Source of the DNA: Dehalococcoidia bacterium
GTDB taxonomy: Bacteria > Chloroflexota > Dehalococcoidia > UBA2979
Length of the DNA: 64,000 nt
Assembly: GCA_028279505.1 (NCBI GenBank)
Contig: JANQNP010000042.1
Span: forward strand, 93 to 64,092
Reading direction: 5' to 3'
A program made the translations under genes and the position numbers. A model generated the notes under the pieces. That model had not been told where the DNA came from and did not search any database. It saw only the letters and a program-made list of their open reading frames with translations. The first letter of the stretch is position 1. Every line of letters begins with the position of its first letter. Below, in pieces: positions 1-25,287 of the stretch.

Positions 1-7
1 CGAGGAC

Positions 8-661
8 GTGACGCAGCTCATCACCCCGGAGCCCGAGGTCCTCGCCGACGAGCCGCGACCGGCGACTCCCGAACCTGGCGAAGCCGACGCGCCGGCGCCA
101 ACGGCACCCACCTCGACGTCGGGAGCGGCGCCCCCGGCCGGAGCGGTACCTGGAGCGCCGGAGCGCGGGTGGCCGCTCGTGGGACGGCCCTGGTGGATCG
201 GGGGCGGGATCGCGGCGATCGTCATCCTCGTGATCATCGCGGCGCTGGCCAGCGACGGCGACGAAAGCCCCGAAGCGGACGTGAACAGCGGCGACTCGCT
301 GATCATCGCCGGCGAGTGGAGTTACAACTTCATCATCGAATCCAACAGCTGCCCGTTTGGGCCGCTGCCCGGCGGGGTGTTCACGCTGACCTACCGGCTG
401 GTCGACCTCGATGTACAGGACGAGCTCGTGCAGGAAGGCGAGCTGGTGGAGATCACCGAGTGGCCCTCGGGTCAGTTCATCGACCAGCTGGTGTTCACCT
501 ATCCGAACTTCTCGTGGACCTACCCCGCGACGGCACCCGGCGCCAGCGGCTTCGTCACGGTCAACAACACCTATTTCAACCAGTCCACCGGGCGGGCGGA
601 GCTCTTCGAGAGCTACGAGCTCGACTCCGGCGGTACCTGCGCGATCAGTGGCACGGAGTGA
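8..661 (+). CDS. Hypothetical single-pass membrane protein with a Pro/Thr-rich N-terminal tail. The 5' end may lie upstream of the window.
   Basis: Open frame starts at GTG 8 with no upstream stop before the window edge. N-terminal TPEPE/ATPEPG/PTAPTSTSG low-complexity tail, one hydrophobic helix (WWIGGGIAAIVILVIIAALA), then a Cys-containing extracytoplasmic domain. Stop is 8 nt before the next gene's ATG. Confidence 0.4.
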   Translation: MTQLITPEPEVLADEPRPATPEPGEADAPAPTAPTSTSGAAPPAGAVPGAPERGWPLVGRPWWIGGGIAAIVILVIIAALASDGDESPEADVNSGDSLIIAGEWSYNFIIESNSCPFGPLPGGVFTLTYRLVDLDVQDELVQEGELVEITEWPSGQFIDQLVFTYPNFSWTYPATAPGASGFVTVNNTYFNQSTGRAELFESYELDSGGTCAISGTE

Positions 662-668
662 TGCACCG

Positions 669-2657
669 ATGAGCCCTGAACGGTCCGACCACAAGATCGC
701 CTGGGAGGACCCCGAGGCCGGCGACGGCGCGTACACCCTCCCCGAAGGCGACACCGTCGTCGGGCGCGCGGAGGATGCCGACGTGGTGCTGAATAGCCCA
801 CTGGTCTCACGCTCCCACGCACGCTTCGAGCGCGCCGGGCTGCGCTTGACGCTGCACGACCTCGGCAGCAGCAATGGCACGTTCGTCAACGGAGAGCGCA
901 TCACCGAGCACGTGCTCCGACCGGGCGACAACGTCCGAGTCGGCAGCGTCGCGCTGACGGTGACGCACCCGGTCGTCGAGCAGCAAGCGACCGTGCTCGC
1001 GCCGGCCTTCACCGTCGCGGAGGGTGTGCTCACGGACGACGGCGCCGGCGCACCCGCTTCGATGCTGACGGCGGTCCTCCCGTTCGCCGACTCGCCGGTC
1101 GAGGAGGCGATGCCGGAGCGTGGCGTCGTCCCGGACGAGATGCTCCGTGACCCCGTGCTCTCCGAGGAAGCGCTCGCGGCTGCCGGTGTGGAGGTGACCG
1201 AGACCGAGTACATGGCCCTCGGCGGGGGTGTCGGCAGCTTCGTGTTCACCGACCTGCTGCGGACCTCGGGGGTGGCGGCCTCCGACATCACGGTGATCGG
1301 CAACGAGCGCGTGCCCTATGCCCGCTATCAGCGCCTCTGCATCAACTCGCAGATCCCGGCGTCCGAGCGGCTGCGTTCGAACTCGGACTCCTGCCCGGAC
1401 AACGTCTGGGGCTTCCCCGGCTACGCGACGCGCGAGGCGTGGCGTGCGGTCCGTTCGGGCAACCTCGGCGAGGCGGCCAGCTTGCTCTGGTCGATCTTCG
1501 GCGAGCCGGCGGTTGCACAGACGTACACGCCGATATCCGGAGACGTCTTCGACTCGATCGATCGTGAGGCGGAGCGCATCGGCTGGGACGAGATGCTGCG
1601 CGAGGGTCGCATTCGCGCGATCCGCAAGACCGATCGAGGACGGGTTGCGGCCGTCGTCTCGACGAGCACGGGGACCGAGCGGCGGCACTCGGTGGTTGCC
1701 GGACGGTTCGCCCAGTTCGCGCTCGGCTACCCGGCGATCCAGATGCTGCCGGACCTCGCGACGTACCGGGAGCAGACCGGCGATCACTTCCACATCGTCA
1801 ACGCCTACGAGGACCACGACGCCGTCTACGAGCACCTGCGGGAACACGGCGGGACGGTCATGATCCGCGGTCGTGGCATCGTCGCGTCGCGGGTGCTGCA
1901 GAAGCTGTGGGAAGACCGCGCGGTCAATCCGAACATCAACGTGGTCCACCTCCATCGCTCACGCCTCGCGGAAGGACACCAGTACGGCCGCTCCGCGCGG
2001 AAGGTCGAGGAGCAGTTCGAGTTCCAGCCCTTCAACTGGCCGAAGTCCTGCTGGGGCGGCGAGCTGCGCGACCTACTGGAATCCTCGGACGACGCGAAGC
2101 GCGCCGAGTTGCTCGGCGCCTGGGGCGGCACCACGACTGCCTCGCGCGACGATTGGCGCGAGCTCGTCAAACAAGGCGTTCGCGAGGGCTGGTACCGGCC
2201 CGAGTTCGGCTCGGTACGCGAAGTGGTGCCGAGTGACGACGGCCGCGTGACGACGCGGATCGACAGCACCGCAGCCGAAGGCAGCACACTGGAGGTCACA
2301 ACCGACTTCGTGATCGACTGCGTCGGTCTGGAGGCGGGCCCCGAGCGCAGCCCGGTCATCCACGACCTGATGGAGATGTACGATTTGCCGCTCAACCCGC
2401 TCGGCCGGTTGAAGGTGAACGATGACTTCGAACTGCCGGGCCTGAGACACGACTCCGCGCGCGTCTACACAGCCGGGGCGGTCACCCTCGGTGGGCCGTA
2501 CGCCGCCGTCGATAGCTTCCTCGGCCTGCAGTACTCAGCGCTGCGGGCGGTCGAGTCGATCCTCGCGAGCGGGATGCAACCGCGAGGGCTGCGGCCGCTG
2601 CGCGGCCTCTACTCGTTCAAGCAGTGGGTGCGGTGGGCGCAGGGGGTCGCGCCGTGA
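669..2657 (+). CDS. FHA domain-containing FAD/NAD(P)-binding oxidoreductase (two dinucleotide-binding domains)
   Basis: ATG at 669 (MSPERSDHKIAWEDPEAG). Canonical FHA motifs present (GR...SRSHARF...DLGSSNGTFVNGERI). Downstream are GGGVGS and GRGIVAS Rossmann-type glycine motifs. The C-terminus (DFVIDCVGLEA...VYTAGAVTLG) is typical of pyridine-nucleotide/flavin oxidoreductases. The tool ORF from 411 is an out-of-frame upstream extension. Confidence 0.6.
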   Translation: MSPERSDHKIAWEDPEAGDGAYTLPEGDTVVGRAEDADVVLNSPLVSRSHARFERAGLRLTLHDLGSSNGTFVNGERITEHVLRPGDNVRVGSVALTVTHPVVEQQATVLAPAFTVAEGVLTDDGAGAPASMLTAVLPFADSPVEEAMPERGVVPDEMLRDPVLSEEALAAAGVEVTETEYMALGGGVGSFVFTDLLRTSGVAASDITVIGNERVPYARYQRLCINSQIPASERLRSNSDSCPDNVWGFPGYATREAWRAVRSGNLGEAASLLWSIFGEPAVAQTYTPISGDVFDSIDREAERIGWDEMLREGRIRAIRKTDRGRVAAVVSTSTGTERRHSVVAGRFAQFALGYPAIQMLPDLATYREQTGDHFHIVNAYEDHDAVYEHLREHGGTVMIRGRGIVASRVLQKLWEDRAVNPNINVVHLHRSRLAEGHQYGRSARKVEEQFEFQPFNWPKSCWGGELRDLLESSDDAKRAELLGAWGGTTTASRDDWRELVKQGVREGWYRPEFGSVREVVPSDDGRVTTRIDSTAAEGSTLEVTTDFVIDCVGLEAGPERSPVIHDLMEMYDLPLNPLGRLKVNDDFELPGLRHDSARVYTAGAVTLGGPYAAVDSFLGLQYSALRAVESILASGMQPRGLRPLRGLYSFKQWVRWAQGVAP

Positions 2658-3088
2658 CACCCAGCCTCGCTGGTCGGTGGCAGAGCCGCCTGTTCGTCCT
2701 CGGCACGATCGGCGTGATCGTGTCCGCCCTGTTCGCCGTCAGCCTCAGCGATCCCGGGGTTGGCGGGGGCGTGTACTTCGTGATCCTCTTCTACGTCGCG
2801 CTGTTCGGCCTCGCGTGGGACGTCGCGTTCATCGGTGTCCAGCGCCTGCGCTGGGATCGCGACTGGCCGCCGGTCTTCCAGGTTGCCGCCGGCATCGTGG
2901 AGGGACTCGTCCTGTTCCTCCTGATCGACGGTGGCGGTCTGCCGGGAATCCCCGAGCAAGGGGTCCCGTTTGGCAGCCGGTTCCTCCCGCACTACGGGTT
3001 GGTGTGGCTGTTAAGCTTCCTGTGGCTACAGGGGCCGATGCGCGTGCTCTCGACGCGCTGGCGCTTCTTCGGTGGGCGGCTCGTCTAG
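2654..3088 (+). CDS. Small polytopic membrane protein, translationally coupled (GTGA) to the FHA-oxidoreductase
   Basis: GTG at 2654 overlaps the TGA of the upstream gene. About four hydrophobic segments (LFVLGTIGVIVSALFAV, VYFVILFYVALFGLAW, GIVEGLVLFLLI, LVWLLSFLWL). Confidence 0.45.
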   Translation: MTPSLAGRWQSRLFVLGTIGVIVSALFAVSLSDPGVGGGVYFVILFYVALFGLAWDVAFIGVQRLRWDRDWPPVFQVAAGIVEGLVLFLLIDGGGLPGIPEQGVPFGSRFLPHYGLVWLLSFLWLQGPMRVLSTRWRFFGGRLV

Positions 3089-3843
3089 TCCGCCCGGGGG
3101 ATACACAGATACCGCCGCGACCCCACCTCAACGACATCGCTGAACGCGAGCCGACGCTCAGCCGCGAGTGCTTCGCCGTTCGCACGCGCCCCATGGGCGG
3201 GTGTCAGCCACAGCTCACCGTCCCTCAGCTCGATCCGCGGTCCGCCGTTCGAGGCAGCGCTCGCGGCGTCGTCCATCGTCATCGACGCCACGCCCTCGCC
3301 GTCGAACGTGAGCGTGTTGCTGGCCAGCAGATCGAAACGCTCCCCGTCGGCGCTGACCACGCGGCACACGACGGGCTGGCGTCCGACCATCGTCGGCGCG
3401 TTGACCAGCGACGAACCGCAGTACCAGCAGTCGTACTGGCCGACCGGGTTCTCGCGCCCACAGTGGTGGCATGCGACGCCGAGCTCGCGCGCGGCTGCGT
3501 CGAGGTCGTGAAAGGTGATCGCGGCGGGGCCAGCCTCGATCACGTCATGGTCCTCGAGCGGTCGACTGGCCTCCACCGATTCGCCGTTGACGAGCGTCGG
3601 GTTGGTCTGGCTGAGGTGCTCCAGCACGAAGCGTTCATCCGCGCGAACGACGCGCGCGTGCTGGCGCGAGAGCGCCGGCAGTTCGATCGACACGGTCGCG
3701 TCGGTCGCACGACCAATCGAGGCCGGCGCGTCGTCCGGGATGCTCGCGACGCACAACTGCTCGTCGTCGATCCAGGTCAGCGCGGCTCGCGGCATCAGGC
3801 GGTGTTCCTCGCTGCAGCGTGCGGGTGACAGTAGGCGGGTCAT
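3085..3843 (-). CDS. FHA domain protein with a central zinc ribbon and a C-terminal FHA-like domain
   Basis: FHA signature (IGRATDATVSIELPALSRQHARVV...LSQTNPTLVNGESV). CxxC...CxxC ribbon (CHHCGRENPVGQYDCWYCG). C-terminal segment has FHA-like character (RIELRDGELWL...VVEVGSRRY). An alternative ATG lies at 3795. Confidence 0.55.
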   Translation of the reverse strand: MTRLLSPARCSEEHRLMPRAALTWIDDEQLCVASIPDDAPASIGRATDATVSIELPALSRQHARVVRADERFVLEHLSQTNPTLVNGESVEASRPLEDHDVIEAGPAAITFHDLDAAARELGVACHHCGRENPVGQYDCWYCGSSLVNAPTMVGRQPVVCRVVSADGERFDLLASNTLTFDGEGVASMTMDDAASAASNGGPRIELRDGELWLTPAHGARANGEALAAERRLAFSDVVEVGSRRYLCIPRAD

Positions 3844-3867
3844 GATACTGCCGAACTGCTGTCAGCC

Positions 3868-5733
3868 GTGACTGACGGTGTCGACGCCGGGCCCGCCGTG
3901 GGGGGCGCACTGGCAGCGCCGGCGTTGGAGTTGTTCGTCCTGGGCGAGGACGGCAGCCGCGAGCCGATCACCGCCCCGCCGGCCCGGTCGCTCACGATCG
4001 GGCGCGAGGGTTCAGACGTCGAGATCGATGACCCGCTATTGAGCCGCCGTCACGCTCGCCTGACCCGGGACGGCGATGCCCTTGTCGTCGAGGACCTCGC
4101 CAGCGCGAACGGCACCCACCTCGAGCGCGGTCAGGACCTGATCGCGGTCGACGGTCGCGCGGTGCTGCACCCGGGCGACGTACTGCGCGTCGGCGCGCAA
4201 CGACTGGCGGTCGACGTGCCGGCGCGCCGCGACGAGGACCGCCCATGGGAGCAGGCGGTCGAGGCGAAGACCGTGGTCGCCGGTTTCGCCAATTTCTTCG
4301 CGGGCTTCATGGTCTGGGCGTTGGTCCCCGTGTTCGCGAAGAGCATGGCGACCGAGATCGGCGCGGACCCCGCCGGGCTCACCCCACTGCTCCTCGCGGC
4401 GGTCCCCGTCTTCAGCGGCGCGGCGTCCCGCATGGTGTTCGGCGTCTGGACGGACATCCGAGGTCCGTTCCTCCCGGGCACGGTCAGCCTCCTTGTAGCG
4501 GCGGTGCCCTTGCTCGCGCTGTGGCTCGCGGGCGACCGTGCGGCCGTGGTGTGGCCGGCGGTCGCGATCCTCGGCGTGGGGCTGGCGGCGTTGCCGATCT
4601 CGATCCCGATGGGCGCGCAGCGCACGGCGCCGCACCAGCGTGGGTTCGCCCTCGGAGTGATCAGCGCGGGCTCGGTCGGTGTCGGCACCGCGGCGATCGG
4701 CGGCCCGCTGCTGGCCGAGGCGATCGGCTGGCGTGAGACCTGCGCGGTGGCAGTCGTGCCGCTCGCCGTCTCGACCGCTGTGTTCGCCTGGGGCAGCCGC
4801 GGCCACTGGTCGTCGCCAACTGCCAGTGAGCGCGCCCGGCTCGTTGCCGATCCAGGGCTCTGGTACGTCTCGGTGCTCTACGGCATCACCTTCGGCGGCT
4901 TTGCGGCGCTCTACTCGTTCCTGCCTGTCCCGCTGCAGGAGGGGGAGTTTGCCCTCGATCCGCGCGAGGCGGCGCTCGTCGTCGCGATGGGTGCGCTATT
5001 CGGCAGCGCCGTCCGGCCGCTCGGCGGGGTGCTCGCCGACCGCAGCGGGACGATCACGGTCCTGCCCTACATCTACGGGGCGACGACGCTGCTGCTGCTC
5101 GTCGCCGCCAACGCGCCCGTCGCCGGGGGGATCGTGCTGCTCGTCGCGACGATGACGGTGCTCGACCTCGGGACCGGTTCGGTGTTCAAGCTCGCCACGC
5201 AGCGCTTCGGCACAGCACTCGGGACCGGCGCCGGGCTCGTCGGCTCGCTGGGTGGGTTCGCCGGATTCTTGATCTTCCTGCTGATGCTCGTCGTGTATCG
5301 CGCGGCGGGCGAGATCGCGCTGGCGCTGGCCTGCGTCGTGGCGATCACCGCCGCCGCCACGGTGGGCATGGTGATTGCCGCGCGGCTGCGACCGAGCGCG
5401 ATCCGCAGGTACGTGCCACCTCGGGCGCCGCGCCTCGAGCTGCTCGACTCGTACGGACGACCTGCCGAGGGTTGGTCGGTCGGCGAGGAGCTGACGATCG
5501 GCCGGTCGCCCGCGCAGCAGGTCTTTCTGCCGCTCGACGACCTCGTCAGTCGGTCGCACGCTCGGCTCGAGTCGAGCGCCGACGGGATCGTGCTCGAGGA
5601 TCTCGGGAGCACGAACGGGACGCACGTCTGGGCGGACGAGCGGTGGACGCAGGTTGCGCGCCAACGGCTACGCGACGGCGACGTGGTTGTGGTCGGCGCG
5701 ACGGTGTTCCGCTTCAGCGCGAACGGGAGCTGA
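3868..5733 (+). CDS. FHA - MFS transporter - FHA fusion protein
   Basis: N-terminal FHA (TIGREGSDVEIDDPLLSRRHARL...DLASANGTHLERG). About 400 aa polytopic core with MFS-like helices (FANFFAGFMVWALVPVFAKSM...). C-terminal FHA (TIGRSPAQQVFLPLDDLVSRSHARL...DLGSTNGTHVWADE). GTG start sits 24 nt from the divergent gene. Confidence 0.65.
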   Translation: MTDGVDAGPAVGGALAAPALELFVLGEDGSREPITAPPARSLTIGREGSDVEIDDPLLSRRHARLTRDGDALVVEDLASANGTHLERGQDLIAVDGRAVLHPGDVLRVGAQRLAVDVPARRDEDRPWEQAVEAKTVVAGFANFFAGFMVWALVPVFAKSMATEIGADPAGLTPLLLAAVPVFSGAASRMVFGVWTDIRGPFLPGTVSLLVAAVPLLALWLAGDRAAVVWPAVAILGVGLAALPISIPMGAQRTAPHQRGFALGVISAGSVGVGTAAIGGPLLAEAIGWRETCAVAVVPLAVSTAVFAWGSRGHWSSPTASERARLVADPGLWYVSVLYGITFGGFAALYSFLPVPLQEGEFALDPREAALVVAMGALFGSAVRPLGGVLADRSGTITVLPYIYGATTLLLLVAANAPVAGGIVLLVATMTVLDLGTGSVFKLATQRFGTALGTGAGLVGSLGGFAGFLIFLLMLVVYRAAGEIALALACVVAITAAATVGMVIAARLRPSAIRRYVPPRAPRLELLDSYGRPAEGWSVGEELTIGRSPAQQVFLPLDDLVSRSHARLESSADGIVLEDLGSTNGTHVWADERWTQVARQRLRDGDVVVVGATVFRFSANGS

Positions 5734-5736
5734 CGA

Positions 5737-6246
5737 GTGGCGACGCTGTACTACCGGGTTGACGACGTCGAGGTGGATCGCGAACTCGATCGCGATCTAT
5801 CGATCGGCCGCGGGAGCGGGAACGAGCTCGTGATCCGCGGCGTGAGCGGCGTCAGCCGCCGTCACGCCGCGATCCGCCGGGCGGGTTCCGGGTACGTCAT
5901 CGAAGACCTCGGAAGCCGCAACGGCACGCGCATCGAGCGGGCCGGCTCCTCGATCGAGGTCGAGGGTGCGACGTCGCTCGCAGCGGGCGACACGATCGTC
6001 CTCGGTGAGTTGCGCGTCCGCTTCGAGGTGGCCCCGGCGGAGGCCACGGACGCGGCGGTCCGCAGCGCGACGTACGTCCCGGCAGTGACGCGCGTGGACG
6101 CGGGCGGGCCGGGGCCCTCGATGGCGACGCCGCCGGTGCCGACGGCGTCCGAAGGTGGATCGCGCTGGCTGCCGATCGCCGCCGGGGCGATCGCGGCCGG
6201 GGCGGCGGCGGCCACGGTCGTCGTGGTGATCGCGCGGGTGCTCTAG
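5737..6246 (+). CDS. FHA domain protein with a C-terminal transmembrane anchor
   Basis: GTG start is 3 nt after the stop of the FHA-MFS gene. FHA motifs present (SIGRGSGNELVIRGVSGVSRRHAAI...DLGSRNGTRIERAG). C-terminal hydrophobic helix (WLPIAAGAIAAGAAAATVVVVIARVL). Confidence 0.55.
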   Translation: MATLYYRVDDVEVDRELDRDLSIGRGSGNELVIRGVSGVSRRHAAIRRAGSGYVIEDLGSRNGTRIERAGSSIEVEGATSLAAGDTIVLGELRVRFEVAPAEATDAAVRSATYVPAVTRVDAGGPGPSMATPPVPTASEGGSRWLPIAAGAIAAGAAAATVVVVIARVL

Positions 6247-6316
6247 GCCGGACGAGGCCCACCGCCTCCAGTGCGCCGAGCGCACCTCGGGAGGCAGCCG
6301 CCGCGCCCTCACCGCG

Positions 6317-7627
6317 CTAGAAGCGGCCACCCGCGAAGTTGTAGGTGACGTTCTCCACCGTTTGCTCGAAGTAGACGCCCTGGACGGAACCATCAGCCCC
6401 GAGCACGCCCTGGTACACGCCGCGACGGAAGCCGAGGCGCTCCGGCGCGTTGTCGGTGATCTGGAAGGTGCCGTCGGCGCTCACGGCACCGGTGAGCGTG
6501 AACTCGCCGGTCTCCGGCCAGAGGCTGGTGCCGGTGATACCGCCGGCAGCGTCGATCACGAACTGGAATTCGTGCGCTGCCTGCGGATCGTTCACCACGG
6601 CTCCATAGGTCCCGGCGATCGAGGCCTGACCGTCTCCGCCTCCGCCGCCGGAGGGGGCCGCCGCGGCCGGCACGGGCAGCTCGACGCCCTGCAGCGTGTT
6701 CGAGTCGAAGAGCGACAGGAGCGTGTGGATGTGCCGGACGTGCACACCGAAGTTGTTCGCGGCCTGCGCCTGCCGATCGAATTCGAACTCGCCAGGGTTC
6801 GTCGCGCTGGGAACGAGGACGATGCGCACGGTGCCGGCGTTGTTGATCGCCGCCACCAACCCACAGTGCATCATCGACGAGCCGCTGGTGCCCGGCGTGG
6901 TCGGCGCCTGGTGCTGATAGACGTCGAGGTTGCTTGCCGTCACCGCTTCCGTGTTGTTGTGCGAGCGCCTCGAGGTGACTGACCCGAGCAGGGACGTCGC
7001 CTGGGGCACGGTCACCCCCGGCTCGGTCGTGATGAACTCATCGACGTCACCCGGGAAGCCGACGATCTGCACGTCGTCGCCGATGCTCAGCACGCTGTTC
7101 GCCGGAGCCAGAGGGAGCGCCGTCGGCATCGCGTCGATTGAGGTGAACAGCGCGACGTCAGGCGAGGTCAGCGGATCGCCGGTGTAGTCCGGATGGACGA
7201 GCGACCGGGCGAGCCGGATCACCTTGCCGGTCCCGGACTGCACGCCCAGCACGTCGGAAAACTGCACACCCTGTGCCGCCGTGTCCTCGAACACGCGGGC
7301 GACGTGGGCGTTCGTCGCCAGTAGCCGGTCGCGCACTGCCCAGGCCGTGCCGATGAAGAGGTGCGCGACCGCCGGGCTACCGTCGGCGGCCTGGAACTGC
7401 GCCTCGCCGAAGATCTGATAGGTGGCGGCGTTCGCGCTATCGAAGGCGTCGCCGGTCGAGGGACAGGTGGCCGGGAAGCCCGCCTTCGCGAGCGGTCCGG
7501 TGGTCGAGCCGGAGTCAGACGGAGCCACCGTTGCGGTCGCGTCGTCTCCGTCGCTTCCACAGGCGGTGAGCAGCAGCGCCAGGGCCACACCCCCGACCAG
7601 CATTGCGCGAGTCCACCAGCGCTGCAT
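6317..7627 (-). CDS. Secreted trypsin-like (S1/chymotrypsin-fold) serine protease, lipoprotein
   Basis: ATG at 7627 is preceded by GAGAGGG. Lipoprotein signal present (MQRWWTRAMLVGGVALALLLTACGSDG). His (TNAHVA), Asp (PDVALF) and Ser (TPGTSGSSMM) triad-like motifs. The longer tool ORF to 7894 has no lipobox context. Confidence 0.6.
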   Translation of the reverse strand: MQRWWTRAMLVGGVALALLLTACGSDGDDATATVAPSDSGSTTGPLAKAGFPATCPSTGDAFDSANAATYQIFGEAQFQAADGSPAVAHLFIGTAWAVRDRLLATNAHVARVFEDTAAQGVQFSDVLGVQSGTGKVIRLARSLVHPDYTGDPLTSPDVALFTSIDAMPTALPLAPANSVLSIGDDVQIVGFPGDVDEFITTEPGVTVPQATSLLGSVTSRRSHNNTEAVTASNLDVYQHQAPTTPGTSGSSMMHCGLVAAINNAGTVRIVLVPSATNPGEFEFDRQAQAANNFGVHVRHIHTLLSLFDSNTLQGVELPVPAAAAPSGGGGGDGQASIAGTYGAVVNDPQAAHEFQFVIDAAGGITGTSLWPETGEFTLTGAVSADGTFQITDNAPERLGFRRGVYQGVLGADGSVQGVYFEQTVENVTYNFAGGRF

Positions 7628-7841
7628 CGTCAGCCCTCTCGACGCGTCATTGATTTCGGGAGCGGAGCCTATCATCGGCCCCTGAGAGGGTCGAGATGAG
7701 ACCGACAGACGCTCTCCCAGCTGGCTCAAGTCTTGCCACGATCGACCTGCCGACGGGCCCGGGACCGGAGCGCCAGGCGCTACTCCAGCCTCTCGTCCCA
7801 GCACACGGGCACCAGTCGCATGAGGGCGACGGGGCGGGACG

Positions 7842-10800
7842 CTAGCTGGCCGTTGGGGCGAGCTGGGTCGCAACGAGGCGTGCATAGAGGCCATCGCGGG
7901 CCAGAAGCTCCTCGTGAGTGCCGGCTTCGACGACGTGGCCGGCGTCGAGTACCACGATCAGGTCGGCGTCGCGAACGGTGGAGAGCCGGTGGGCGATGAC
8001 GACGGTGGTGCGGCCGCTCTCGAGTTCGGAGAGGGCGTTGCGGACAAGGCGCTCGTTGAGCGAGTCGAGGTGTGAGGTGGCTTCGTCGAGCACGAGGACG
8101 GGAGCGTCCTTGAGGATGGCGCGGCCGATGGCGACACGCTGGCGCTGGCCACCGGAGAGCTGGGCACCGCGCTCGCCGACGATGGTGTCGACGCCATCGG
8201 GCAGGGTGGCGACGAAGTCGGCGAGGCCCGCTCGTTGGAGCGCGTCAGAGAGCTCGCGGTCGTTGGCAGTGGGCCGGGCGACGAGCAGGTTGTCCCGGAT
8301 CGACGCGTTGAACAGGTAGGTGTCCTGGGCGACGAGGGCGATGCGGCCGCGGAGTTGATCGAGCTGGAAGTCGCGGGCGTCGTGGTTGTCGAGGGTGACG
8401 GTACCGGCGTCCGGGTCCCAGAAGCGGAGGAGCTGGTGGGCGACGGTGCTCTTGCCGGCACCGGAGGGGCCGACGAGCGCGACGGTGGAGCCGGGACGGA
8501 CATCGAATGAGACGTCCTCGAGCGCGGGACGCGAGGCGCCCTGGTAGGTGAAGACAACGTCGCTGAGCGCGGCGCCGGCGGGCGCGCGGCCATTGCCCTC
8601 GGCCGGGTCGTCGCTCACGCCGGGGCCGTCGAGGACGGGGACGTGCTCGGTGTGGATCGCTGTGATGCGGCGGGTGGCGCCGATGGTGTCACCGAGGCGC
8701 CGGCCAACCTGCGCAAGCTCGCTGATGGGGAGGAAGGCGCCCATGGAGAGGAGGGTGATGAGTGGGAGGGCGCCGGGGTCGAGGTCTCCGTTGGCGGCCA
8801 TGGATGCGCCGACGACGAGGATGGTGAGGCCACCGGTCCCGATGAGCAGTTCGAGCCAGATGCGCTGGATGGTGATCTGGCGGTTGAACGCGAGGCGGAC
8901 GGGGATGTAGCCGGCGGCGAGGCGCGCGAACTCCTGTCGCCGGGCCGGCGCGGCCTGAAAGGCAGCGATCTCGCGGAGTCCCTGGAGGGTGTCGACGACG
9001 TGGGCGTTGAGTTCGCCGAGGTGTCCGCGCGCGACGGTGCCGAGGCGCTCGATGGCGGCGCGGGTGAGCACGGGGCTCCAGGCAGCGAGGACGAGGAACG
9101 GGAGGAGGACGAGGGCGAGCTGCCAGCCGTAGAAGAACAGGGTGATGAGGATGCCGAGCGGGACGACGAGGGCGACGAAGGCGTTGGCGATGGTGTGCGC
9201 GAAGAAGTATTCGATGGTTTCGACGTCCTGGGTCGCCATGGCGACGAGGTCGCCAGTACGGCGGCGTTGGAGGTAGCCGGGCGTCAGCCGATCGAGCTGG
9301 CGATAGAGGGCGATGCGCATCTGGGCGAGGAGGCGGAAGGCGAGGTCATGGGAGAACCAGGATTCGAGCCAGGTGAGGAGCGCGGTGGCGGGAGCGAGGA
9401 TGAGCAGCGCGATCATGAGGCCGTCGAAGGACTCCCCGTCGCGGACGCGGGCGACCATGAGGGCGCCGAGGACGGAGACGCCGATCAGTCCGATGAAGTG
9501 CCCGACGCCGGATACGAAGGAGAGGATGAGCTTGGGCCAGAGCGAGCCGACGACGGCGAGGAGGCGGGTGAAGGTCTCGACCCAGCCCATGGCGTCTGCG
9601 TTGCGCATGGCCTCAGTAGGCGCGGCGTGGAGGTCTTCGCGCGGCTCGGCCGACGGGGTGGCGACGGTGTTCGGGGCCGGGACAGCGGCTGCGGGGCGCT
9701 GGCGGGTTGACGCCGCGGCGTCTTCGAGTTGCTCGGCCATGAGAGCGGCGTAGGGGCCACCGCTCTCCCGAAGCTCGGCGGGCGCGCCGGTCTCGACCAG
9801 TTCGCCGTCGTGGAGCACCAGAACGCGGTCGCATCCGGCGACGCTGGAGAGCCGGTGGGCAACGACGAGGGTGGTGCGGCCCTCCATGAGGCGGTCCAGC
9901 GCCTGCTGGATTATGGCTTCATTCTCGGCGTCGACGCTGGAGAGCGCCTCGTCGAGGACGAGGATGGGAGCGTCGCGGAGGAGGGCGCGGGCGATGGCGA
10001 CGCGCTGGCGCTCGCCACCGGAGAGGCGCAGTCCTCGTTCTCCGATCACGGTGTCGTAGCCACGGGGGAGGCCGGCGATGAAGTCGTGGGCGTTGGCGGC
10101 GCGGGCAGCCACCTCTAGCTCCTCTTGGGAGGCATCGGGCTTTCCGAGCCGGAGGTTGGCGGCGATCGTGCCGTGGAAGAGGTAGGTGTCCTGGAGCACG
10201 ACGGCCATCTGGGCGCGGAGCGAGTCGAACGAGAGTTCGCGGACATCGACGTCGCCCACGAGGACGCGACCGTCCTGGGGGTCGTAGAGGCGCTGGAGTA
10301 GCCAGACGAGGGTGGATTTGCCGGAGCCGCTTCGGCCAACGACGGCGACGCGTTCGCCGGAGGCGACCTGGAAGGAGACGTCGCGGAGGGCGGGGCGGCG
10401 ACCGCCCGGGTAGGAGAAGGTCACGCCCTCGAAGGTGACGCCGGGGCCGGTGGCGGCGGCGGGGAGGGCGCGTGCCTCGGAGGCCTCGGCGACGCGCGGT
10501 TCCGCGGCGAGCAGATCGAAGACGCCGCCGGAGGCGGAGACGCCCAGCAGGCCCTGGTGGAAGAGCTGGCTGAGTTCGCGGAGCGGGCGGAAGACCTCGA
10601 CGCCGAGCATGAGGATGACGAGCAACACCTCGATGCTGAGGTCGCCGCTCTCGACGCGGGAGGCGCCGTAGGCGAGCGCGATGGCGGCGCCCATCGCGAT
10701 GCCGGCGATGGTCATGCCGTGGGTGGCGGCGTTGCTGGCGAGGACGCCCATAGTGGAGCGGAAGACGTCGTCGGCGCGGCGCTCGAGCCGGTCGCCGCGG

Positions 10801-11447
10801 GTGCCGCTCTGGCCGAAGGCCTTGAGCGTCGGCAGTCCCTGGATGGAGTCGAGGAAGTCTGAGGCGAAGGAGCCGTAGGCCTCGCGACGGCGGATGCTGG
10901 CGGAGGCGTTCATGCGGTGGAAGACGGAGGGCGCGGCCAGCGTGACGAGGGCGACGACGAGGTAGATGGCGGCGGTGGGCAGGTCGAGGAAGGCCATGAA
11001 GAGGAAGATGCCGACTGGAGCGAGCGCGGCGGTGAAGAACTGTGGCAAGTACTGGCCGAAGAAGGTCTCGAGCTGCTCGACGCCTTCGACGAGCGAGATG
11101 GTGACTTCGCCGGTGCGGCGGGAGTCGAAGTAGGCGGGGCCGAGGTCGAGCACGCGGTCGTGCAGGCGGGCGCGGAGATGCGATTGGACGCGGGCGGCGG
11201 TGGCGTAGGCGACGCCTTCCTTCAGGTACTGGAGGCCGGCGCGGGTGACGATGGCAGCGAGGACGGCCGCGATCGGGAGGACGAGATCGGAGGGCGCATC
11301 GCCCTCGAAGACACGCGCGAGCAGGAGGCCGAGGAGGGCGAGGCGCGCGATCCCGGCGGCGGCGGTGGCGAGTCCGAGGGCGACGGCGAGTGCGATGCGT
11401 CCTCGGACGCCGGCGGTGAGGCTCCAGAGACGAAGGCTGAAGTACAC
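7842..11447 (-). CDS. Fused ABC exporter (TMD-NBD-TMD-NBD), CydDC-type thiol/cysteine exporter family
   Basis: 1201 aa. Two Walker A motifs (GRSGSGKST, GPSGAGKST). Two ABC signatures ([28 protein letters not shown]). Two six-helix TMD blocks. Confidence 0.8.
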   Translation of the reverse strand: MYFSLRLWSLTAGVRGRIALAVALGLATAAAGIARLALLGLLLARVFEGDAPSDLVLPIAAVLAAIVTRAGLQYLKEGVAYATAARVQSHLRARLHDRVLDLGPAYFDSRRTGEVTISLVEGVEQLETFFGQYLPQFFTAALAPVGIFLFMAFLDLPTAAIYLVVALVTLAAPSVFHRMNASASIRRREAYGSFASDFLDSIQGLPTLKAFGQSGTRGDRLERRADDVFRSTMGVLASNAATHGMTIAGIAMGAAIALAYGASRVESGDLSIEVLLVILMLGVEVFRPLRELSQLFHQGLLGVSASGGVFDLLAAEPRVAEASEARALPAAATGPGVTFEGVTFSYPGGRRPALRDVSFQVASGERVAVVGRSGSGKSTLVWLLQRLYDPQDGRVLVGDVDVRELSFDSLRAQMAVVLQDTYLFHGTIAANLRLGKPDASQEELEVAARAANAHDFIAGLPRGYDTVIGERGLRLSGGERQRVAIARALLRDAPILVLDEALSSVDAENEAIIQQALDRLMEGRTTLVVAHRLSSVAGCDRVLVLHDGELVETGAPAELRESGGPYAALMAEQLEDAAASTRQRPAAAVPAPNTVATPSAEPREDLHAAPTEAMRNADAMGWVETFTRLLAVVGSLWPKLILSFVSGVGHFIGLIGVSVLGALMVARVRDGESFDGLMIALLILAPATALLTWLESWFSHDLAFRLLAQMRIALYRQLDRLTPGYLQRRRTGDLVAMATQDVETIEYFFAHTIANAFVALVVPLGILITLFFYGWQLALVLLPFLVLAAWSPVLTRAAIERLGTVARGHLGELNAHVVDTLQGLREIAAFQAAPARRQEFARLAAGYIPVRLAFNRQITIQRIWLELLIGTGGLTILVVGASMAANGDLDPGALPLITLLSMGAFLPISELAQVGRRLGDTIGATRRITAIHTEHVPVLDGPGVSDDPAEGNGRAPAGAALSDVVFTYQGASRPALEDVSFDVRPGSTVALVGPSGAGKSTVAHQLLRFWDPDAGTVTLDNHDARDFQLDQLRGRIALVAQDTYLFNASIRDNLLVARPTANDRELSDALQRAGLADFVATLPDGVDTIVGERGAQLSGGQRQRVAIGRAILKDAPVLVLDEATSHLDSLNERLVRNALSELESGRTTVVIAHRLSTVRDADLIVVLDAGHVVEAGTHEELLARDGLYARLVATQLAPTAS

Positions 11448-11552: not shown

Positions 11553-11696
11553 TTTGCAAACATTCGCAACTTGGCGACACGTTGACCGGCTAGCGCGCTG
11601 GAACGGCCGGGATGCCTGCTCGCTCAGGGGGCAGCGGGCTTGCTTAACGCGAAAATTCGCATCAAGATACGATTCGTTTCTGCGAATCTTTGCGAA
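11553..11696. promoter_or_regulatory. AT-rich intergenic region with repeated TTCGCA/TGCGAA hexamers and short palindromes. Candidate operator/promoter for the downstream peptide ABC operon.
   Basis: TTTGCAAA palindrome at 11553-11560. TTCGCA at 11564 and 11656. GCGAAaaTTCGC near-palindrome at 11649-11660. TGCGAA at 11681 and 11691 (10-bp spacing). ATTCGCA/TGCGAAT inverted pair. Local AT content is well above the genome background. Confidence 0.35.
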
Positions 11697-11714
11697 AGTG
11701 ATCGAGGTGCATGG

Positions 11715-13367: not shown

Positions 13368-13376
13368 CTCCGCGCC

Positions 13377-14390
13377 GTGCGCGAACTCGAGGTCACCTTC
13401 GAGTCCGACATCCGCCTCGGAGGGATGTTGTGTCTCCCCGAGGATGCGGGCGCCGATCGTCCCGCGCCGGCCTTCGTGCTGCTGGGCGGGACGGGCGGCG
13501 ACACGCGCGACGGCGACCTGGCGCCCGAACGGACGCCGGGGACGCACAACCCGCCGCGCCGCGGGCTGCTGCGCCGGATCGCACATCGCCTGGCGGTCGA
13601 TGGCATCGCGACCCTGCGGTTTGACAAGCGCGGTTGTGGCGCGAGCGGCGGCACGGCCGACGAGTCCGACTACGACACCGACCTGCTCGATAATCGCGCC
13701 GCGTTCCGATGGCTGCGCGGGCGGGATGAGATCGACGCCTCGCGGGTCGGGCTGATCGGGCACAGCGCCGGCGCGTTCAATGCCTGCATGGTCTGCCGCG
13801 ACGAACCCGACGTCGCCGCGGCAGGTCTGCTGGGAGCACTCCACGGACCGATCGACGATCTGATCCGCTGGAACTGGGGACGCATCGCCGCGCACTGGGA
13901 GCAGTTCAGCGAGGACCAGCGAGACTGGCTGCTGCGGGAGCGCACGCGCGACGTCCTTGGCAGCTTCGGGATGGAGCGATTCCTCGAAGCGCTGCACGGC
14001 GACGCGCGCACGATCACCCTCGAGGCGCACGGGCGCTCGATGGAGTTCGCGACCGTGCGCGCCCAGCAGGACCTGGAGCGTTCTGTCGCTCCGGCCTTCG
14101 CGTACGTTCGTTGTCCCGCGTTGGTGCTGCACGGCGGCGACGATCTGAACGTCAGGGTCGACGACGCGCTCGACAGCTACCGCGCGCTGCGCGCGGCGGG
14201 CAACGACGCGGTTGACCTCGAGATCTTGCCCGGCCTTGACCACTCCTTCCAGCCTGTCGCCGCCGATCCGGCGCAGCGGATCTGGGACCGCGTGTCGCTC
14301 GCCTCGTTCGGTCGTCCCGTCTCGCCAGCAGCGCTCGACGCCGTCGCGCGCTGGGCGACGCGCACCCTCAGCGGTCGCGGCGCCAGCTAG
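13377..14390 (+). CDS. Alpha/beta-fold hydrolase embedded in the ABC operon
   Basis: GxSxG nucleophile elbow (IGHSAGAF). GTG start is 9 nt after the SBP stop. Its stop overlaps the permease start (TAGTG). Confidence 0.6.
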   Translation: MRELEVTFESDIRLGGMLCLPEDAGADRPAPAFVLLGGTGGDTRDGDLAPERTPGTHNPPRRGLLRRIAHRLAVDGIATLRFDKRGCGASGGTADESDYDTDLLDNRAAFRWLRGRDEIDASRVGLIGHSAGAFNACMVCRDEPDVAAAGLLGALHGPIDDLIRWNWGRIAAHWEQFSEDQRDWLLRERTRDVLGSFGMERFLEALHGDARTITLEAHGRSMEFATVRAQQDLERSVAPAFAYVRCPALVLHGGDDLNVRVDDALDSYRALRAAGNDAVDLEILPGLDHSFQPVAADPAQRIWDRVSLASFGRPVSPAALDAVARWATRTLSGRGAS

Positions 14391-18641: not shown

Positions 18642-18781
18642 CCAGCCCCGTATACCGGGAACCGATCGTCATCGTTCACCGCCGGCAGAGGACAGCGCCG
18701 AGCCTGGAGCGAACCCGGCTGGTGGTTGGAGCGGGAAGACCGCCGGCCGATTGGACTCGGTCCGGTCGGCTGGGAGCAAGA

Positions 18782-18812
18782 GGACCCGGCCACCCCTTAG
18801 GTGGCCGGGTCC
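18782..18812. terminator. Perfect 13-bp stem / 5-nt loop hairpin between convergent genes (bidirectional terminator candidate)
   Basis: GGACCCGGCCACC ccta GGTGGCCGGGTCC lies between the cupin gene (+) and the SBP gene (-). Confidence 0.5.
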
Positions 18813-25283: not shown

Positions 25284-25287
25284 GGCG

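What the first reader, a model, noticed from the sequence alone, without database searches (positions are those of the whole stretch)
669..3088. FHA-flavoprotein oxidoreductase translationally coupled (GTGA) to a small four-helix membrane protein
A roughly 660-aa protein combines an FHA domain with a two-dinucleotide-binding-domain flavoprotein. Its stop overlaps the start of a 144-aa polytopic membrane protein. This looks like a membrane-tethered redox enzyme whose activity or localisation may be gated by phosphothreonine recognition. The enzyme class (N-hydroxylase, disulfide reductase, etc.) cannot be fixed from sequence alone.
Basis: partly seen in the sequence, partly recalled or inferred. 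Interest (0 to 1): 0.5.

Follow-up and report, generated by a model that had tools for sequence, protein, structure and literature searches.

The report
Kinase-wired flavoenzyme with membrane partner
Two overlapping genes encode a flavin enzyme carrying a phosphothreonine-reading domain and a small four-helix membrane protein. Together they are the conserved core of an uncharacterised module, wired to Ser/Thr kinases, found in Chloroflexota, filamentous cyanobacteria and Actinomycetota.

Summary
Gene A (669-2657, 662 aa) has an intact FHA domain, a disordered linker and a ~510-aa C-terminal domain. Gene B (2654-3088, 144 aa) starts in a GTGA overlap and models as four long helices.

The A-B pair is ancient. 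B follows A in 75 of 88 loci, usually with the same 4-nt overlap, including FHA-less A relatives in Actinomycetota. An FHA plus zinc-ribbon protein (3085-3843, minus strand) accompanies it in 67 of 88 loci.

Window 2-661 is the 3' end of a transmembrane Hanks-type kinase gene that ends 7 nt before A. Kinases, PP2C phosphatases and transporters recur nearby.

Best reading: a membrane-docked, NADPH/FAD monooxygenase-like enzyme switched by phosphothreonine signalling. Its substrate is unknown. It is a new, undescribed family within known folds.

The parts
2..661 (+). 3' end of a transmembrane Hanks-type Ser/Thr kinase gene, cut by the window edge. It covers the last 219 aa: Pro/Ala-rich linker, one TM helix and the extracytoplasmic domain.
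   Evidence: 93% identical over 219 aa to residues 366-584 of a 584-aa protein in contig L088 whose residues 18-259 are Pfam Pkinase (E 2e-44). Hydrophobic segment at aa ~66-78. The stop at 659-661 lies 7 nt before A's ATG.
669..2657 (+). Gene A: 662-aa protein made of an FHA domain, a disordered linker and a class-B-flavin-monooxygenase-like domain.
753..944 (+). FHA domain (aa 29-92 by Pfam; beta-sandwich aa 9-99 in the model).
975..1106 (+). Disordered linker (aa 103-146).
   Evidence: pLDDT below 50 for aa 103-146. Length and sequence vary among homologues.
987..1004 (+). Linker threonine motif A107-T108-V-L-A-P112, a candidate phospho-acceptor and FHA ligand.
   Evidence: The motif [ASG]-T-x0-1-[VILM]-[LVIMF]-x0-3-P occurs in 53 of 91 homologue linkers against 4.3 expected from shuffles. 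The regex was chosen after seeing the data.
1116..2654 (+). Catalytic domain (aa 150-662): FAD domain, inserted NAD(P)H domain and a small third domain.
1221..1238 (+). First dinucleotide-binding motif, G185-G-G187-V-G189-S190 (FAD).
   Evidence: G185 and G187 are 36/36, S190 34/36 in alignment A2, which includes FHA-less relatives. The motif follows beta-strand 175-185 in the model.
1797..1829 (+). Degenerate class-B 'FMO motif' V-N-A-Y380-E-D-H383-D-A-V-Y387. H383 lies 18 residues before G401; the motif ends 14 residues before it.
   Evidence: Y380 36/36, H383 34/36, Y387 34/36. Motif definition and position taken from PMC7570161.
1869..1886 (+). Second dinucleotide-binding motif, G401-R-G403-I-V-A406 (NAD(P)H). 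R430 (nt 1956-1958) ends the next beta-strand.
   Evidence: G401 and G403 are 36/36, A406 32/36, R430 33/36. Strands 395-400 and 423-429.
2304..2330 (+). 'ATG-type' linker motif D546-F-V-I-D550-C-V-G553-L.
   Evidence: D550 34/36, G553 36/36, position 552 is T in 33/36. The profile aligns this stretch to the KtzI and MbtG 'CATGY/YATGY' region.
2604..2654 (+). Conserved C-terminal amphipathic helix and tail (...YSFKQWVRWAQGVAP), a candidate docking element.
   Evidence: S649, W653 and P662 are invariant in the 36 FHA-bearing homologues of A1. S649 and W653 stay invariant and P662 is >=90% conserved once FHA-less relatives are added. Helix 646-657. Hydrophobic moment 0.58-0.73.
2654..2657 (+). 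GTGA: the start codon of B overlaps the stop codon of A.
   Evidence: The same (A/G)TGA junction was found in 26 of 87 loci by script, plus L002 and L008 by eye, with an SD-like purine run 7-12 nt upstream. Granulicoccus L092 also has it.
2654..3088 (+). Gene B: 144-aa four-helix membrane protein of an unannotated family.
   Evidence: AF2 pLDDT 91.8 with four helices. No Pfam, NCBIfam or PADLOC hit. No solved structural relative: best Foldseek E = 5. 121 homologue clusters, all named 'hypothetical' apart from one JGI 'L-asparagine transporter-like permease' label.
2849..2869 (+). Invariant R66-W-D-R-D-W71 plus P72 (>=90% conserved), in the loop between helices 2 and 3 of B. Predicted cytoplasmic.
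   Evidence: Alignment A3 invariants. The topology is inferred from the positive-inside rule: the inner loops carry 3-4 Arg each, the outer loops none (sequence).
3085..3843 (-). Gene C: FHA plus CxxC...CxxC zinc-ribbon protein. 252 aa from the first ATG, or 236 aa from M17 as called in sister contigs. Its 3' end overlaps B's 3' end by 4 nt. The zinc ribbon is aa 125-142 (nt 3418-3471).
   Evidence: FHA E 4.4e-13; weak zinc-ribbon hits. A homologous FHA plus zinc-ribbon gene lies next to A in 67 of 88 loci.
3868..5733 (+). Gene D: FHA, MFS (NarK-like) transporter, FHA; 621 aa. An accessory gene of the cassette, not part of the universal core.
   Evidence: Two FHA stretches (E 3.7e-28), MFS_1 E 1e-17, NarK TIGR00886 E 6.7e-33 but below its cutoff. 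Found only in close relatives and L014.
5737..6246 (+). Gene E: FHA protein with a C-terminal TM anchor, 169 aa. An accessory gene of the cassette.
   Evidence: FHA E 3.5e-13. Hydrophobic segment at aa 153-160. Homologues in 6 loci.

Best explanation
Genes A and B are the two core subunits of a widespread, undescribed module.

A is a cytoplasmic flavoenzyme with the architecture of class-B flavin monooxygenases: a FAD domain, an inserted NADPH domain and a small third domain. Its nearest structural relatives are the amine N-hydroxylases. B is a four-helix membrane protein. All of its invariant Arg/Trp/Asp motifs face the cytoplasm, and it most likely docks A at the inner face of the membrane. 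The two are made in fixed proportion by translational coupling.

The module is an output of Ser/Thr phospho-signalling. A transmembrane Hanks kinase encoded 7 nt upstream creates phosphothreonines. Candidate sites are the kinase itself, the FHA/zinc-ribbon adaptor (gene C), or the conserved Thr108 motif in A's own linker. A's FHA domain reads these marks, which switches the enzyme's activity or its engagement with B and with neighbouring transporters.

The most likely chemistry is NADPH- and O2-dependent oxygenation of a nucleophilic heteroatom (N-hydroxylation-like) on an unknown polar or membrane-associated substrate.

Shown: the ORFs, the overlap, the FHA domain, the fold, the cofactor-motif conservation, the synteny and the phyletic spread. 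Inferred: FAD/NADPH binding, the A-B complex, the phospho-switch, oxygenase chemistry and the substrate.

For: Motifs conserved through 36 sequences down to 30% identity:
- G185xG187xxS190
- Y380..H383...Y387, at the class-B FMO-motif position
- G401xG403xxA406
- R430
- D550-[CA]-T-G553
- D615

Pairing of A with B. B follows A in 75 of 88 loci. The 4-nt overlap occurs in 26 loci by script plus two by eye, with an SD-like run upstream. FHA-less relatives of A (32-39% identity) in metagenomes, Nocardia and Granulicoccus are also followed by a B homologue.

Phospho-signalling link.
- FHA phosphothreonine-binding residues are invariant.
- The kinase gene ends 7 nt upstream, with a PP2C phosphatase gene divergent from it in the sister contig.
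- A kinase lies within 6 kb in 19 of 90 loci and a PP2C in 6.
- An FHA plus zinc-ribbon partner is present in 67 of 88 loci.
- In Granulicoccus the operon reads kinase, A, B, TauE, kinase, FHA. In Nocardia it reads A, B, FHA.
- The linker Thr motif occurs in 53 of 91 linkers against 4.3 expected.

Membrane face of B. The N-terminal GRWQxR, the RWDRDWP loop and the C-terminal WRFxGGR are invariant or nearly so, and lie on the Arg-rich side.
Against: There is no biochemical evidence of any kind.

The catalytic domain fails every sequence family threshold. Pfam Lys_Orn_oxgnase reaches only E 0.054, in 3 of 36 members. The profile against PDB sequences gives KtzI E 0.026.

No A-B complex was modelled. 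Thirteen of 88 loci, mostly cyanobacteria such as Calothrix and Planktothrix, have no B within ~6 kb. Cyanobacterial loci mostly lack a nearby kinase.

The linker Thr motif was defined after looking at the data, and it lies in a low-confidence region of the model.

The neighbouring transporters differ between loci (CPA, MFS, TauE), so no single substrate is implied.
Confidence: 0.55

Rival explanations
1. A is an NAD(P)H:acceptor (quinone-type) oxidoreductase or an NADPH/redox-state sensor. It sits on B and modulates neighbouring transporters. This would resemble NDH-2, or KefF acting on the KefC antiporter, rather than oxygenating a metabolite.
Confidence: 0.2
2. A is catalytically inert: a flavoenzyme-derived scaffold that only bridges phospho-proteins to the membrane protein B.
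For: No known family membership. Very high conservation of surface-like motifs and of the extreme C-terminus. Embedded among several FHA adaptor proteins.
Against: The glycines of both dinucleotide-binding motifs, R430, D615 and the His/Tyr motif are retained in 33-36 of 36 sequences, across Chloroflexota and cyanobacterial genomes plus unassigned FHA-less metagenomic relatives down to 30% identity. This is not expected once cofactor binding is lost.
Confidence: 0.08
3. A is a thiol-disulfide reductase of the Bdr/YpdA or thioredoxin-reductase type.
Against: There is no CxxC or CxxxxC. None of the four Cys is conserved: C224, C242, C461 and C551 are each replaced in many homologues. The FAD motif is GGGVGS, with no Cys.
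Confidence: 0.04
4. A is an ordinary siderophore-pathway ornithine/lysine/diamine N-hydroxylase that happens to carry an FHA domain.
For: The best structural matches are SidA, PvdA, DfoA/DesB and KtzI.
Against: Only ~13% identity, and below the Pfam PF13434 threshold. The recurrent-neighbour analysis of 88 loci shows no acyltransferase, NRPS or NIS-synthetase as a conserved partner. One locus, L001, does carry NRPS genes ~3 kb downstream. The conserved partners are a membrane protein, FHA proteins and kinases.
Confidence: 0.03
5. A and B are merely neighbours, with no physical or functional partnership.
For: No interaction was tested. Thirteen of 88 loci lack B nearby.
Against: Adjacency is kept between Chloroflexota, Cyanobacteria and Actinomycetota at 30-60% identity, mostly with a 4-nt overlap. 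Some B proteins carry a fused zinc ribbon in loci that lack the separate FHA/zinc-ribbon gene.
Confidence: 0.05

Closest known systems
N-hydroxylating class-B flavin monooxygenases (SidA, PvdA, DesB/DfoA, KtzI, IucD/MbtG type)
   Different: Only ~13% identity, and below the Pfam and NCBIfam thresholds. The FAD motif ends in Ser, not Asn. There are large, family-specific invariant inserts (NSQIPxxERLRSxSxSxPDNxWGFPGY; EFQPFNWPK; WGGTTTA). It has an N-terminal FHA domain or an operon-encoded FHA partner, an obligate 4-TM partner, and no recurrent siderophore-biosynthesis context.
Bacillithiol disulfide reductase Bdr/YpdA and short bacterial FMOs (SMFMO 4a9w, 3d1c)
   Different: Those are ~330-aa two-domain enzymes. 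Bdr depends on a conserved Cys in its FAD motif. Here there is no conserved Cys, and the protein has ~170 extra residues forming a third domain and inserts.
GarA/OdhI FHA phospho-switch (Mycobacterium, Corynebacterium)
   Same: Close FHA sequence relatives (E 5e-11). An FHA domain plus a conserved Thr motif (T-x-hydrophobic-hydrophobic) in a flexible segment of the same chain. A Hanks kinase is encoded nearby. My own knowledge: in GarA and OdhI the phosphorylated N-terminal ETTS threonine binds the protein's own FHA domain and switches off target binding.
   Different: GarA and OdhI are small regulators of other enzymes. Here the FHA domain is fused to the enzyme itself, the Thr motif lies C-terminal to the FHA, and phosphorylation is untested.
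Rv1747 (ABC transporter with two FHA domains, regulated by PknF) and FHA-GGDEF DgcB
   Same: Precedents for FHA domains fused to a membrane transporter or an enzyme so that Ser/Thr kinase signals gate activity. Both appear among the FHA hits. The neighbouring gene D (FHA-MFS-FHA) mirrors Rv1747's design.
   Different: Different effector domains. No flavoenzyme fusion was found described in the searched literature.
KefF/KefG-KefC/KefB (flavoprotein ancillary subunit of a CPA2 K+/H+ antiporter)
   Same: A cytoplasmic NAD(P)H flavoprotein functionally attached to a membrane cation/proton antiporter. CPA-family antiporters are the commonest transporter neighbour of A in Chloroflexota loci.
   Different: KefF is a small FMN flavodoxin-like quinone reductase, unrelated in fold. 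The universal partner here is B, not the antiporter.
Type II NADH dehydrogenase (NDH-2) and sulfide:quinone oxidoreductase
   Same: Peripheral-membrane flavoenzymes of the same superfamily, with C-terminal amphipathic helices.

Membership tests
FHA domain (PF00498) | Profile match above the curated threshold | tested here: met
   72.6 bits against a cutoff of 20.7, aa 29-92.
FHA domain (PF00498) | Phosphothreonine-pocket residues: Gly-Arg, Ser-x-x-His, Asn-Gly | tested here: met
   G32, R33, S47, H50 and G70 invariant; R48 and N69 conserved in at least 90% of 36 homologues.
FHA domain (PF00498) | Beta-sandwich fold | tested here: met
FHA domain (PF00498) | Binds phosphothreonine peptides | not testable with these tools
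   Needs ITC or peptide arrays with the recombinant domain.
Class-B flavoprotein monooxygenases | Two dinucleotide-binding domains, with the NADPH domain inserted into the FAD domain | tested here: met
Class-B flavoprotein monooxygenases | Two GxGxxG/A motifs, N-terminal (FAD) and central (NADPH) | tested here: met
   GGGVGS at 185-190 (third position Ser) and GRGIVA at 401-406. The glycines are 36/36. Motif definition from PMC7570161.
Class-B flavoprotein monooxygenases | FMO motif FxGxxxHxxx(F/Y/W) just before the NADPH motif (only the His in N-hydroxylases) | tested here: inconclusive
   The strict motif is absent. A degenerate V-N-A-Y-E-x-H383-x-x-V-Y387 lies at the right spacing, with H and Y each conserved in 34/36.
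Class-B flavoprotein monooxygenases | Membership of a curated sequence family (PF00743 FMO-like, PF13738, PF13434, NCBIfam) | tested here: not met
   No hit at E <= 0.01 for the protein. Best across 36 members is PF13434 at E 0.054, in 3 members.
Class-B flavoprotein monooxygenases | Binds FAD and NADPH and forms a C4a-(hydro)peroxyflavin | not testable with these tools
   Needs purified protein, spectroscopy and stopped-flow kinetics.
N-hydroxylating monooxygenases (SidA/PvdA/IucD) | Closest three-dimensional similarity, including the small substrate domain | tested here: met
N-hydroxylating monooxygenases (SidA/PvdA/IucD) | FAD motif GxGxxN and PF13434 membership | tested here: not met
   Position 190 is Ser in 34/36. 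PF13434 is below threshold. The profile against PDB sequences gives only KtzI E 0.026 and MbtG E 0.084.
N-hydroxylating monooxygenases (SidA/PvdA/IucD) | Genomic association with hydroxamate or siderophore biosynthesis | tested here: not met
   No such gene is among the recurrent neighbours in 88 loci. One locus, L001, has NRPS genes ~3 kb downstream.
N-hydroxylating monooxygenases (SidA/PvdA/IucD) | Amine-substrate-binding residues | not tested
Pyridine-nucleotide disulfide oxidoreductases (GR/TrxR/Bdr) | Redox-active Cys pair, or the catalytic Cys of Bdr | tested here: not met
   No CxxC or CxxxxC. All four Cys are variable.
NDH-2 type peripheral quinone reductases | Best fold match and a quinone site | tested here: inconclusive
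GarA/OdhI-like intramolecular FHA switch | Conserved phospho-acceptor Thr motif in a flexible region of the same polypeptide | tested here: inconclusive
   Motif in 53 of 91 linkers against 4.3 expected, but the pattern was defined post hoc. Phosphorylation is untested.
Gene B: any known membrane-protein family | Sequence or structural match to a described family | tested here: not met
   No Pfam, NCBIfam or PADLOC hit. Best Foldseek PDB hit has E = 5. Homologues are all 'hypothetical' apart from one JGI transporter-like label.

The most novel reading that the evidence does not exclude
A-B would be a new type of membrane-bound flavin monooxygenase complex. A dedicated 4-TM subunit of a novel fold would present a membrane-embedded or transported substrate to a class-B-like oxygenase. 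The whole enzyme would be switched on and off by Hanks-kinase/FHA signalling. That would make it a direct, hard-wired link between Ser/Thr phosphorylation and oxidative small-molecule or lipid chemistry, conserved across three bacterial phyla.
Probability: 0.25. Interest if true: 0.75.

Novelty: new variant of a known kind. Interest (0 to 1): 0.55.

Why it matters
Bacterial Hanks-type kinases and FHA proteins are abundant in Actinomycetota, Chloroflexota and cyanobacteria, but few of their enzymatic outputs are known.

This module would give a defined one. It consists of a flavoenzyme family (at least ~580 matching stretches in a one-genome-per-species collection, and no Pfam or NCBIfam model), its invariant membrane partner and an FHA/zinc-ribbon adaptor. 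The FHA domain is either fused to the enzyme or encoded beside it.

The module occurs in cultured organisms (Microcoleus, Calothrix, Nocardia, Granulicoccus), so it is directly testable. Working it out would:
- assign function to two 'hypothetical' families;
- possibly reveal a new substrate class for class-B monooxygenases;
- provide a clean system for studying how phosphothreonine reading controls a redox enzyme at the membrane.

Tried and rejected
- Sequence-family assignment of the C-terminal domain failed. Pfam, NCBIfam and PADLOC gave nothing. phmmer against PDB sequences gave only NDH-2 at E 0.23. A 36-sequence profile gave only borderline N-hydroxylase hits.
- An exhaustive phmmer search of 1.84 billion cluster representatives found 436 hits. 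The 150 best listed all look like family members or fragments; the rest were not inspected, and that library carries no annotation. No bridge to a named family emerged.
- Disulfide-reductase reading: rejected, no conserved Cys.
- Classical siderophore N-hydroxylase: rejected on context.
- Anti-phage defence system: no PADLOC hit.
- A Hanks kinase inside the window: a strict HRDxKPxN scan found none. The kinase turned out to be the gene truncated at the window's left edge.
- Fold search for gene B gave nothing significant.
- Four literature searches for an FHA-flavoenzyme description found nothing relevant. Two papers that co-mention FHA and zinc ribbons were read and are unrelated.
- Rfam scan of the window: no hits.
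- No A-B complex prediction was run.
- One MAFFT run on 113 full-length homologues timed out and was replaced by anchor-based linker extraction.
Full report
**1. The observation**

The window is ~69-70% G+C. Gene A runs from ATG 669 to TGA 2655-2657 and encodes 662 aa. A GGAG lies about 10 nt upstream of the ATG, and the upstream gene's stop codon lies between them. The last codons read gcg ccG TGA cac, so the GTG at 2654 opens a 144-aa ORF ending at 3088. This is a 4-nt GTGA overlap.

Both frames have the codon-position G+C signature of real genes: 0.70/0.48/0.89 for A and 0.69/0.46/0.88 for B. Public gene calls on near-identical contigs give exactly 662 and 144 aa.

Pfam finds an FHA domain at aa 29-92 (E 3.6e-20). 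It finds nothing for the remaining ~510 aa or for the 144-aa protein, and NCBIfam agrees. The physical observation is therefore confirmed. The flavoprotein claim needed structural testing.

**2. Gene A, N-terminal part**

Residues 103-146 are disordered (pLDDT below 50) and vary in length. They nevertheless carry a recurrent motif, [ASG]-T-x0-1-[VILM]-[LVIMF]-x0-3-P, which here reads A107-T108-V-L-A-P. It occurs in 53 of 91 linkers against 4.3 expected from composition-preserving shuffles. I chose the pattern after seeing the sequences, so the statistic is descriptive only.

A Thr followed by hydrophobic residues in a flexible arm next to an FHA domain resembles the GarA/OdhI self-inhibitory switch (my own knowledge). 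GarA and OdhI are also among the closest FHA sequence relatives.

**3. Gene A, C-terminal domain**

The model (mean pLDDT 84.6, pTM 0.74) was searched against solved structures.

| Search | Hits |
|---|---|
| Foldseek | Top 33 hits are all N-hydroxylating class-B flavin monooxygenases (SidA, PvdA, DfoA, KtzI): E 2.5e-17 to 2e-15, target TM 0.67-0.74, 12-15% identity |

At motif level I used a 36-sequence alignment that includes FHA-less relatives down to 30% identity. The following are conserved:
- G185-x-G187-x-x-S190, with G185 and G187 at 36/36.
- G401-x-G403-x-x-A406, with G401 and G403 at 36/36.
- R430 at the end of the next strand (33/36), the position of the 2'-phosphate-binding Arg in NADPH enzymes. 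That role is my own knowledge and an inference here.
- D550-[C/A]-T-G553-L.
- D615 (35/36).
- A degenerate FMO motif, V-N-A-Y380-E-x-H383-x-x-V-Y387, with H383 lying 18 residues before G401.

PMC7570161 defines class-B enzymes by two GxGxxG/A motifs and an FxGxxxHxxx(F/Y/W) motif in this position. N-hydroxylases keep only the His and usually have GxGxxN and GxGxxA.

The family fails curated sequence membership. Pfam Lys_Orn_oxgnase reaches only E 0.054, in 3 of 36 members. A family profile against PDB sequences gives KtzI E 0.026 and MbtG E 0.084, aligned on the ATG-motif region.

There is no CxxC or CxxxxC, and none of the four Cys is conserved. This argues against Bdr-, TrxR- or GR-type disulfide chemistry.

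Large family-specific invariant stretches presumably build a distinct substrate pocket: NSQIPxxERLRSxSxSxPDNxWGFPGY, EFQPFNWPK and WGGTTTA. I therefore file A as class-B-monooxygenase-like and nearest to the N-hydroxylases in structure, but not as a member of that family.

**4. Gene B**

AlphaFold2 (38-sequence alignment; pLDDT 91.8, pTM 0.85) gives four long helices: 5-30, 40-64, 73-94 and 106-126. Simple hydropathy passes its threshold for the first three; the fourth is weaker. Invariant residues are M-T-P-x-L-x-G-R-W at the N-terminus, R66-W-D-R-D-W71 between helices 2 and 3 (with P72 at >=90%), E83, Y114, R130 and W-R-x-x-G near the C-terminus.

By the positive-inside rule the N-terminus, the 2-3 loop and the C-terminus are cytoplasmic, since each carries 2-4 Arg while the other loops carry none. 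All the invariant charged and aromatic motifs therefore form one cytoplasmic face. This topology is an inference.

B has no Pfam, NCBIfam or PADLOC hit and no solved structural relative: the best Foldseek E is 5. Its 121 homologue clusters carry no informative name; all that are named are 'hypothetical protein' apart from one JGI 'L-asparagine transporter-like permease' label.

**5. Conservation of the pair**

A's catalytic domain has more than 1,600 homologue clusters at 90% identity. An exhaustive search found 436 clusters at 50% identity. At least 584 confirmed stretches occur in a one-genome-per-species collection. Those listed are mostly Chloroflexota and filamentous cyanobacteria: Microcoleus, Calothrix, Planktothrix, Leptolyngbya and Acaryochloris.

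In 88 loci, a B homologue lies next to A in 75. The (A/G)TGA overlap is present in 26 of 87 loci by script, and by eye also in L002 and L008. An SD-like purine run embedded in A's R-G-V codons lies 7-12 nt upstream. In cyanobacteria the gap is 25-1,300 nt.

FHA-less relatives of A (~500-530 aa, 30-39% identity) form a second large group. The named hits are mostly Actinomycetota: Acidimicrobiales, Thermoleophilaceae, Egibacteraceae, Nocardia tengchongensis and Granulicoccus sp.. They are also followed by B homologues, mostly with the same overlap. A-B is therefore the ancient core, and the FHA fusion is one clade's solution.

A's extreme C-terminus (S649, W653, W656, P662) is conserved even where there is no overlap. 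It forms an amphipathic aromatic helix and is a plausible docking element.

**6. The signalling context**

The ORF at 2-661, which looked like a 217-aa anchored protein, is the last 219 aa of a 584-aa protein. It is 93% identical to the full gene on sister contig L088, whose residues 18-259 are a Hanks kinase domain. That gene ends 7 nt before A, and a PP2C phosphatase gene lies divergently upstream of it.

Downstream of B, convergent and overlapping by 4 nt, is gene C, which carries an FHA domain and a CxxC...CxxC zinc ribbon. A homologous FHA plus zinc-ribbon gene is adjacent to A in 67 of 88 loci. It lies upstream and co-directional in cyanobacteria and Ardenticatenaceae, and convergent after B in Dehalococcoidia-type loci.

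Next come D (FHA, NarK-like MFS, FHA) and E (FHA with a TM anchor). This makes five FHA domains in four proteins within 6 kb.

Across loci, a Hanks kinase lies within 6 kb in 19 of 90 and a PP2C in 6. CPA-type cation/proton antiporters, some fused to FHA or USP domains, occur in at least 13 loci.

In Granulicoccus the operon reads kinase, A, B, TauE, kinase, FHA protein. In Nocardia it reads A, B, FHA protein with 4-nt overlaps. Both separate FHA proteins carry a C-x3-H...C-x2-C knuckle before the FHA domain.

Some B homologues carry a C-terminal zinc ribbon. In one such locus (L090: CPA, A, B-zinc ribbon) there is no separate gene C. This is a fusion-type hint that the zinc-ribbon element works at B.

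**7. Mechanism**

Best-supported model (confidence ~0.55):
- A is a FAD/NADPH class-B-monooxygenase-like enzyme. It is co-translated with B and docked on B's conserved cytoplasmic face.
- The upstream transmembrane kinase, opposed by PP2C, writes phosphothreonines that A's FHA domain reads. Candidate sites are the kinase itself, the adaptor C, or A's own Thr108 motif. This toggles activity or assembly.

The chemistry (heteroatom oxygenation, N-hydroxylation-like) is inferred from the closest structures and motifs. The substrate is unknown.

Main rival (~0.2): A is an NAD(P)H:acceptor reductase or redox sensor that modulates neighbouring transporters, by analogy with KefF-KefC (PMC2920069, PMC11150392). 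This fits the recurrent antiporter neighbours. It fits less well the markedly better structural match to monooxygenases and the lack of transporter synteny in cyanobacteria.

The pseudoenzyme, disulfide-reductase, siderophore-hydroxylase and 'mere neighbours' readings are each disfavoured by specific tests.

**8. Novelty**

The folds and the logic of FHA fusions are known: Rv1747, DgcB and GarA all appear among the FHA hits. Neither the catalytic-domain family nor B has a curated model or a solved relative. Four full-text searches found no description of an FHA-linked flavin monooxygenase or of this module.

I rate it a new variant of a known kind, with interest 0.55. It is not startling in concept, but it is a broadly conserved, well-delimited and experimentally accessible unknown that links Ser/Thr signalling to a redox enzyme at the membrane.

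**9. Limits**

- All functional statements rest on predicted structures, motif conservation and synteny.
- No A-B complex was modelled.
- No residue-level superposition on N-hydroxylases was possible.
- The organism of the window was not identified.
- Locus counts over-represent closely related Microcoleus genomes.

Noticed in passing
window 2-661 (+): What looks like a separate 217-aa anchored protein is the 3' end of a 584-aa transmembrane Hanks-type Ser/Thr kinase gene cut by the window edge. Its extracytoplasmic domain (aa ~99-217 of the fragment) is also found at the C-terminus of kinases next to A in loci L002 and L006.
   Followed up: yes
window 3868-5733 (+): A NarK-like MFS transporter flanked by an FHA domain at each end (621 aa), reminiscent of the two-FHA ABC transporter Rv1747. 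In other Chloroflexota loci the equivalent neighbour is a CPA Na+/H+-type antiporter, sometimes fused to FHA and USP domains (for example L005:9109-10899 and L011:5312-8065).
   Followed up: partly
window 5737-6246 (+): A small FHA protein with a C-terminal transmembrane anchor (169 aa). Homologues occur in only 6 related loci.
   Followed up: partly
window 3085-3088: Genes B (+) and C (-) converge, and their stop codons overlap by 4 nt. The same arrangement is seen in the sister contigs L083 and L088. Gene C's start is ambiguous: ATG 3843 gives 252 aa, while M17 at 3795 gives 236 aa, as called in public contigs.
   Followed up: partly
window 3406-3417 (-), gene C aa 143-146; L002 10397-11089: Directly after gene C's zinc ribbon, the sequence ...CG(S/T)SLVNAxT... 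is shared by the window and L002, the only two sequences compared. It places another Thr in a flexible segment, a possible second phospho-site. I did not quantify this.
   Followed up: no
window 6317-7894 (-) and 7842-11447 (-): A secreted trypsin-like (Trypsin_2) protease with a long C-terminal extension, followed by a 1,201-aa ABC transporter. The transporter is a fusion of CydD-like and CydC-like halves (TIGR02857 at 691 bits, TIGR02868 at 618 bits).
   Followed up: no
P0362, P0374, P0388; locus L090 6001-6753: Some B homologues are 208-250 aa, with a Pro/Gln-rich tail. In P0362 and P0374 the tail ends in a C-terminal CxC...CPxCG zinc ribbon; P0388 has the tail but no ribbon. In L090 the order is CPA antiporter, A, B-zinc ribbon, with no separate FHA/zinc-ribbon gene nearby.
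   Followed up: partly
locus L091 (Nocardia tengchongensis) 1-7189 and 8001-11112: The FHA-less A-B-FHA operon lies divergently next to the nuoA-G (complex I) operon. This could be coincidence or a hint of a respiratory or quinone connection.
   Followed up: no
loci L024, L030, L036, L068, L073-L077, L082: About a dozen cyanobacterial loci (Calothrix, Planktothrix, Lyngbya and others) have A and usually the FHA/zinc-ribbon gene, but no B homologue within ~6 kb. Whether B is elsewhere in these genomes is unknown.
   Followed up: no
window 11640-26697: Two Opp/Dpp-type peptide ABC transporter gene sets (SBP_bac_5 binding proteins, permeases, ATPases), an alpha/beta-hydrolase or S9/S15 peptidase, and an amidase. 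There is no evident link to the module.
   Followed up: partly
window 56393-56482 (+): ARAGORN calls a 90-nt tRNA-Ala(CGC) inside a region covered by long high-GC3 ORFs on the minus strand. Rfam finds no tRNA or other RNA family anywhere in the window, so this is probably a false positive.
   Followed up: partly
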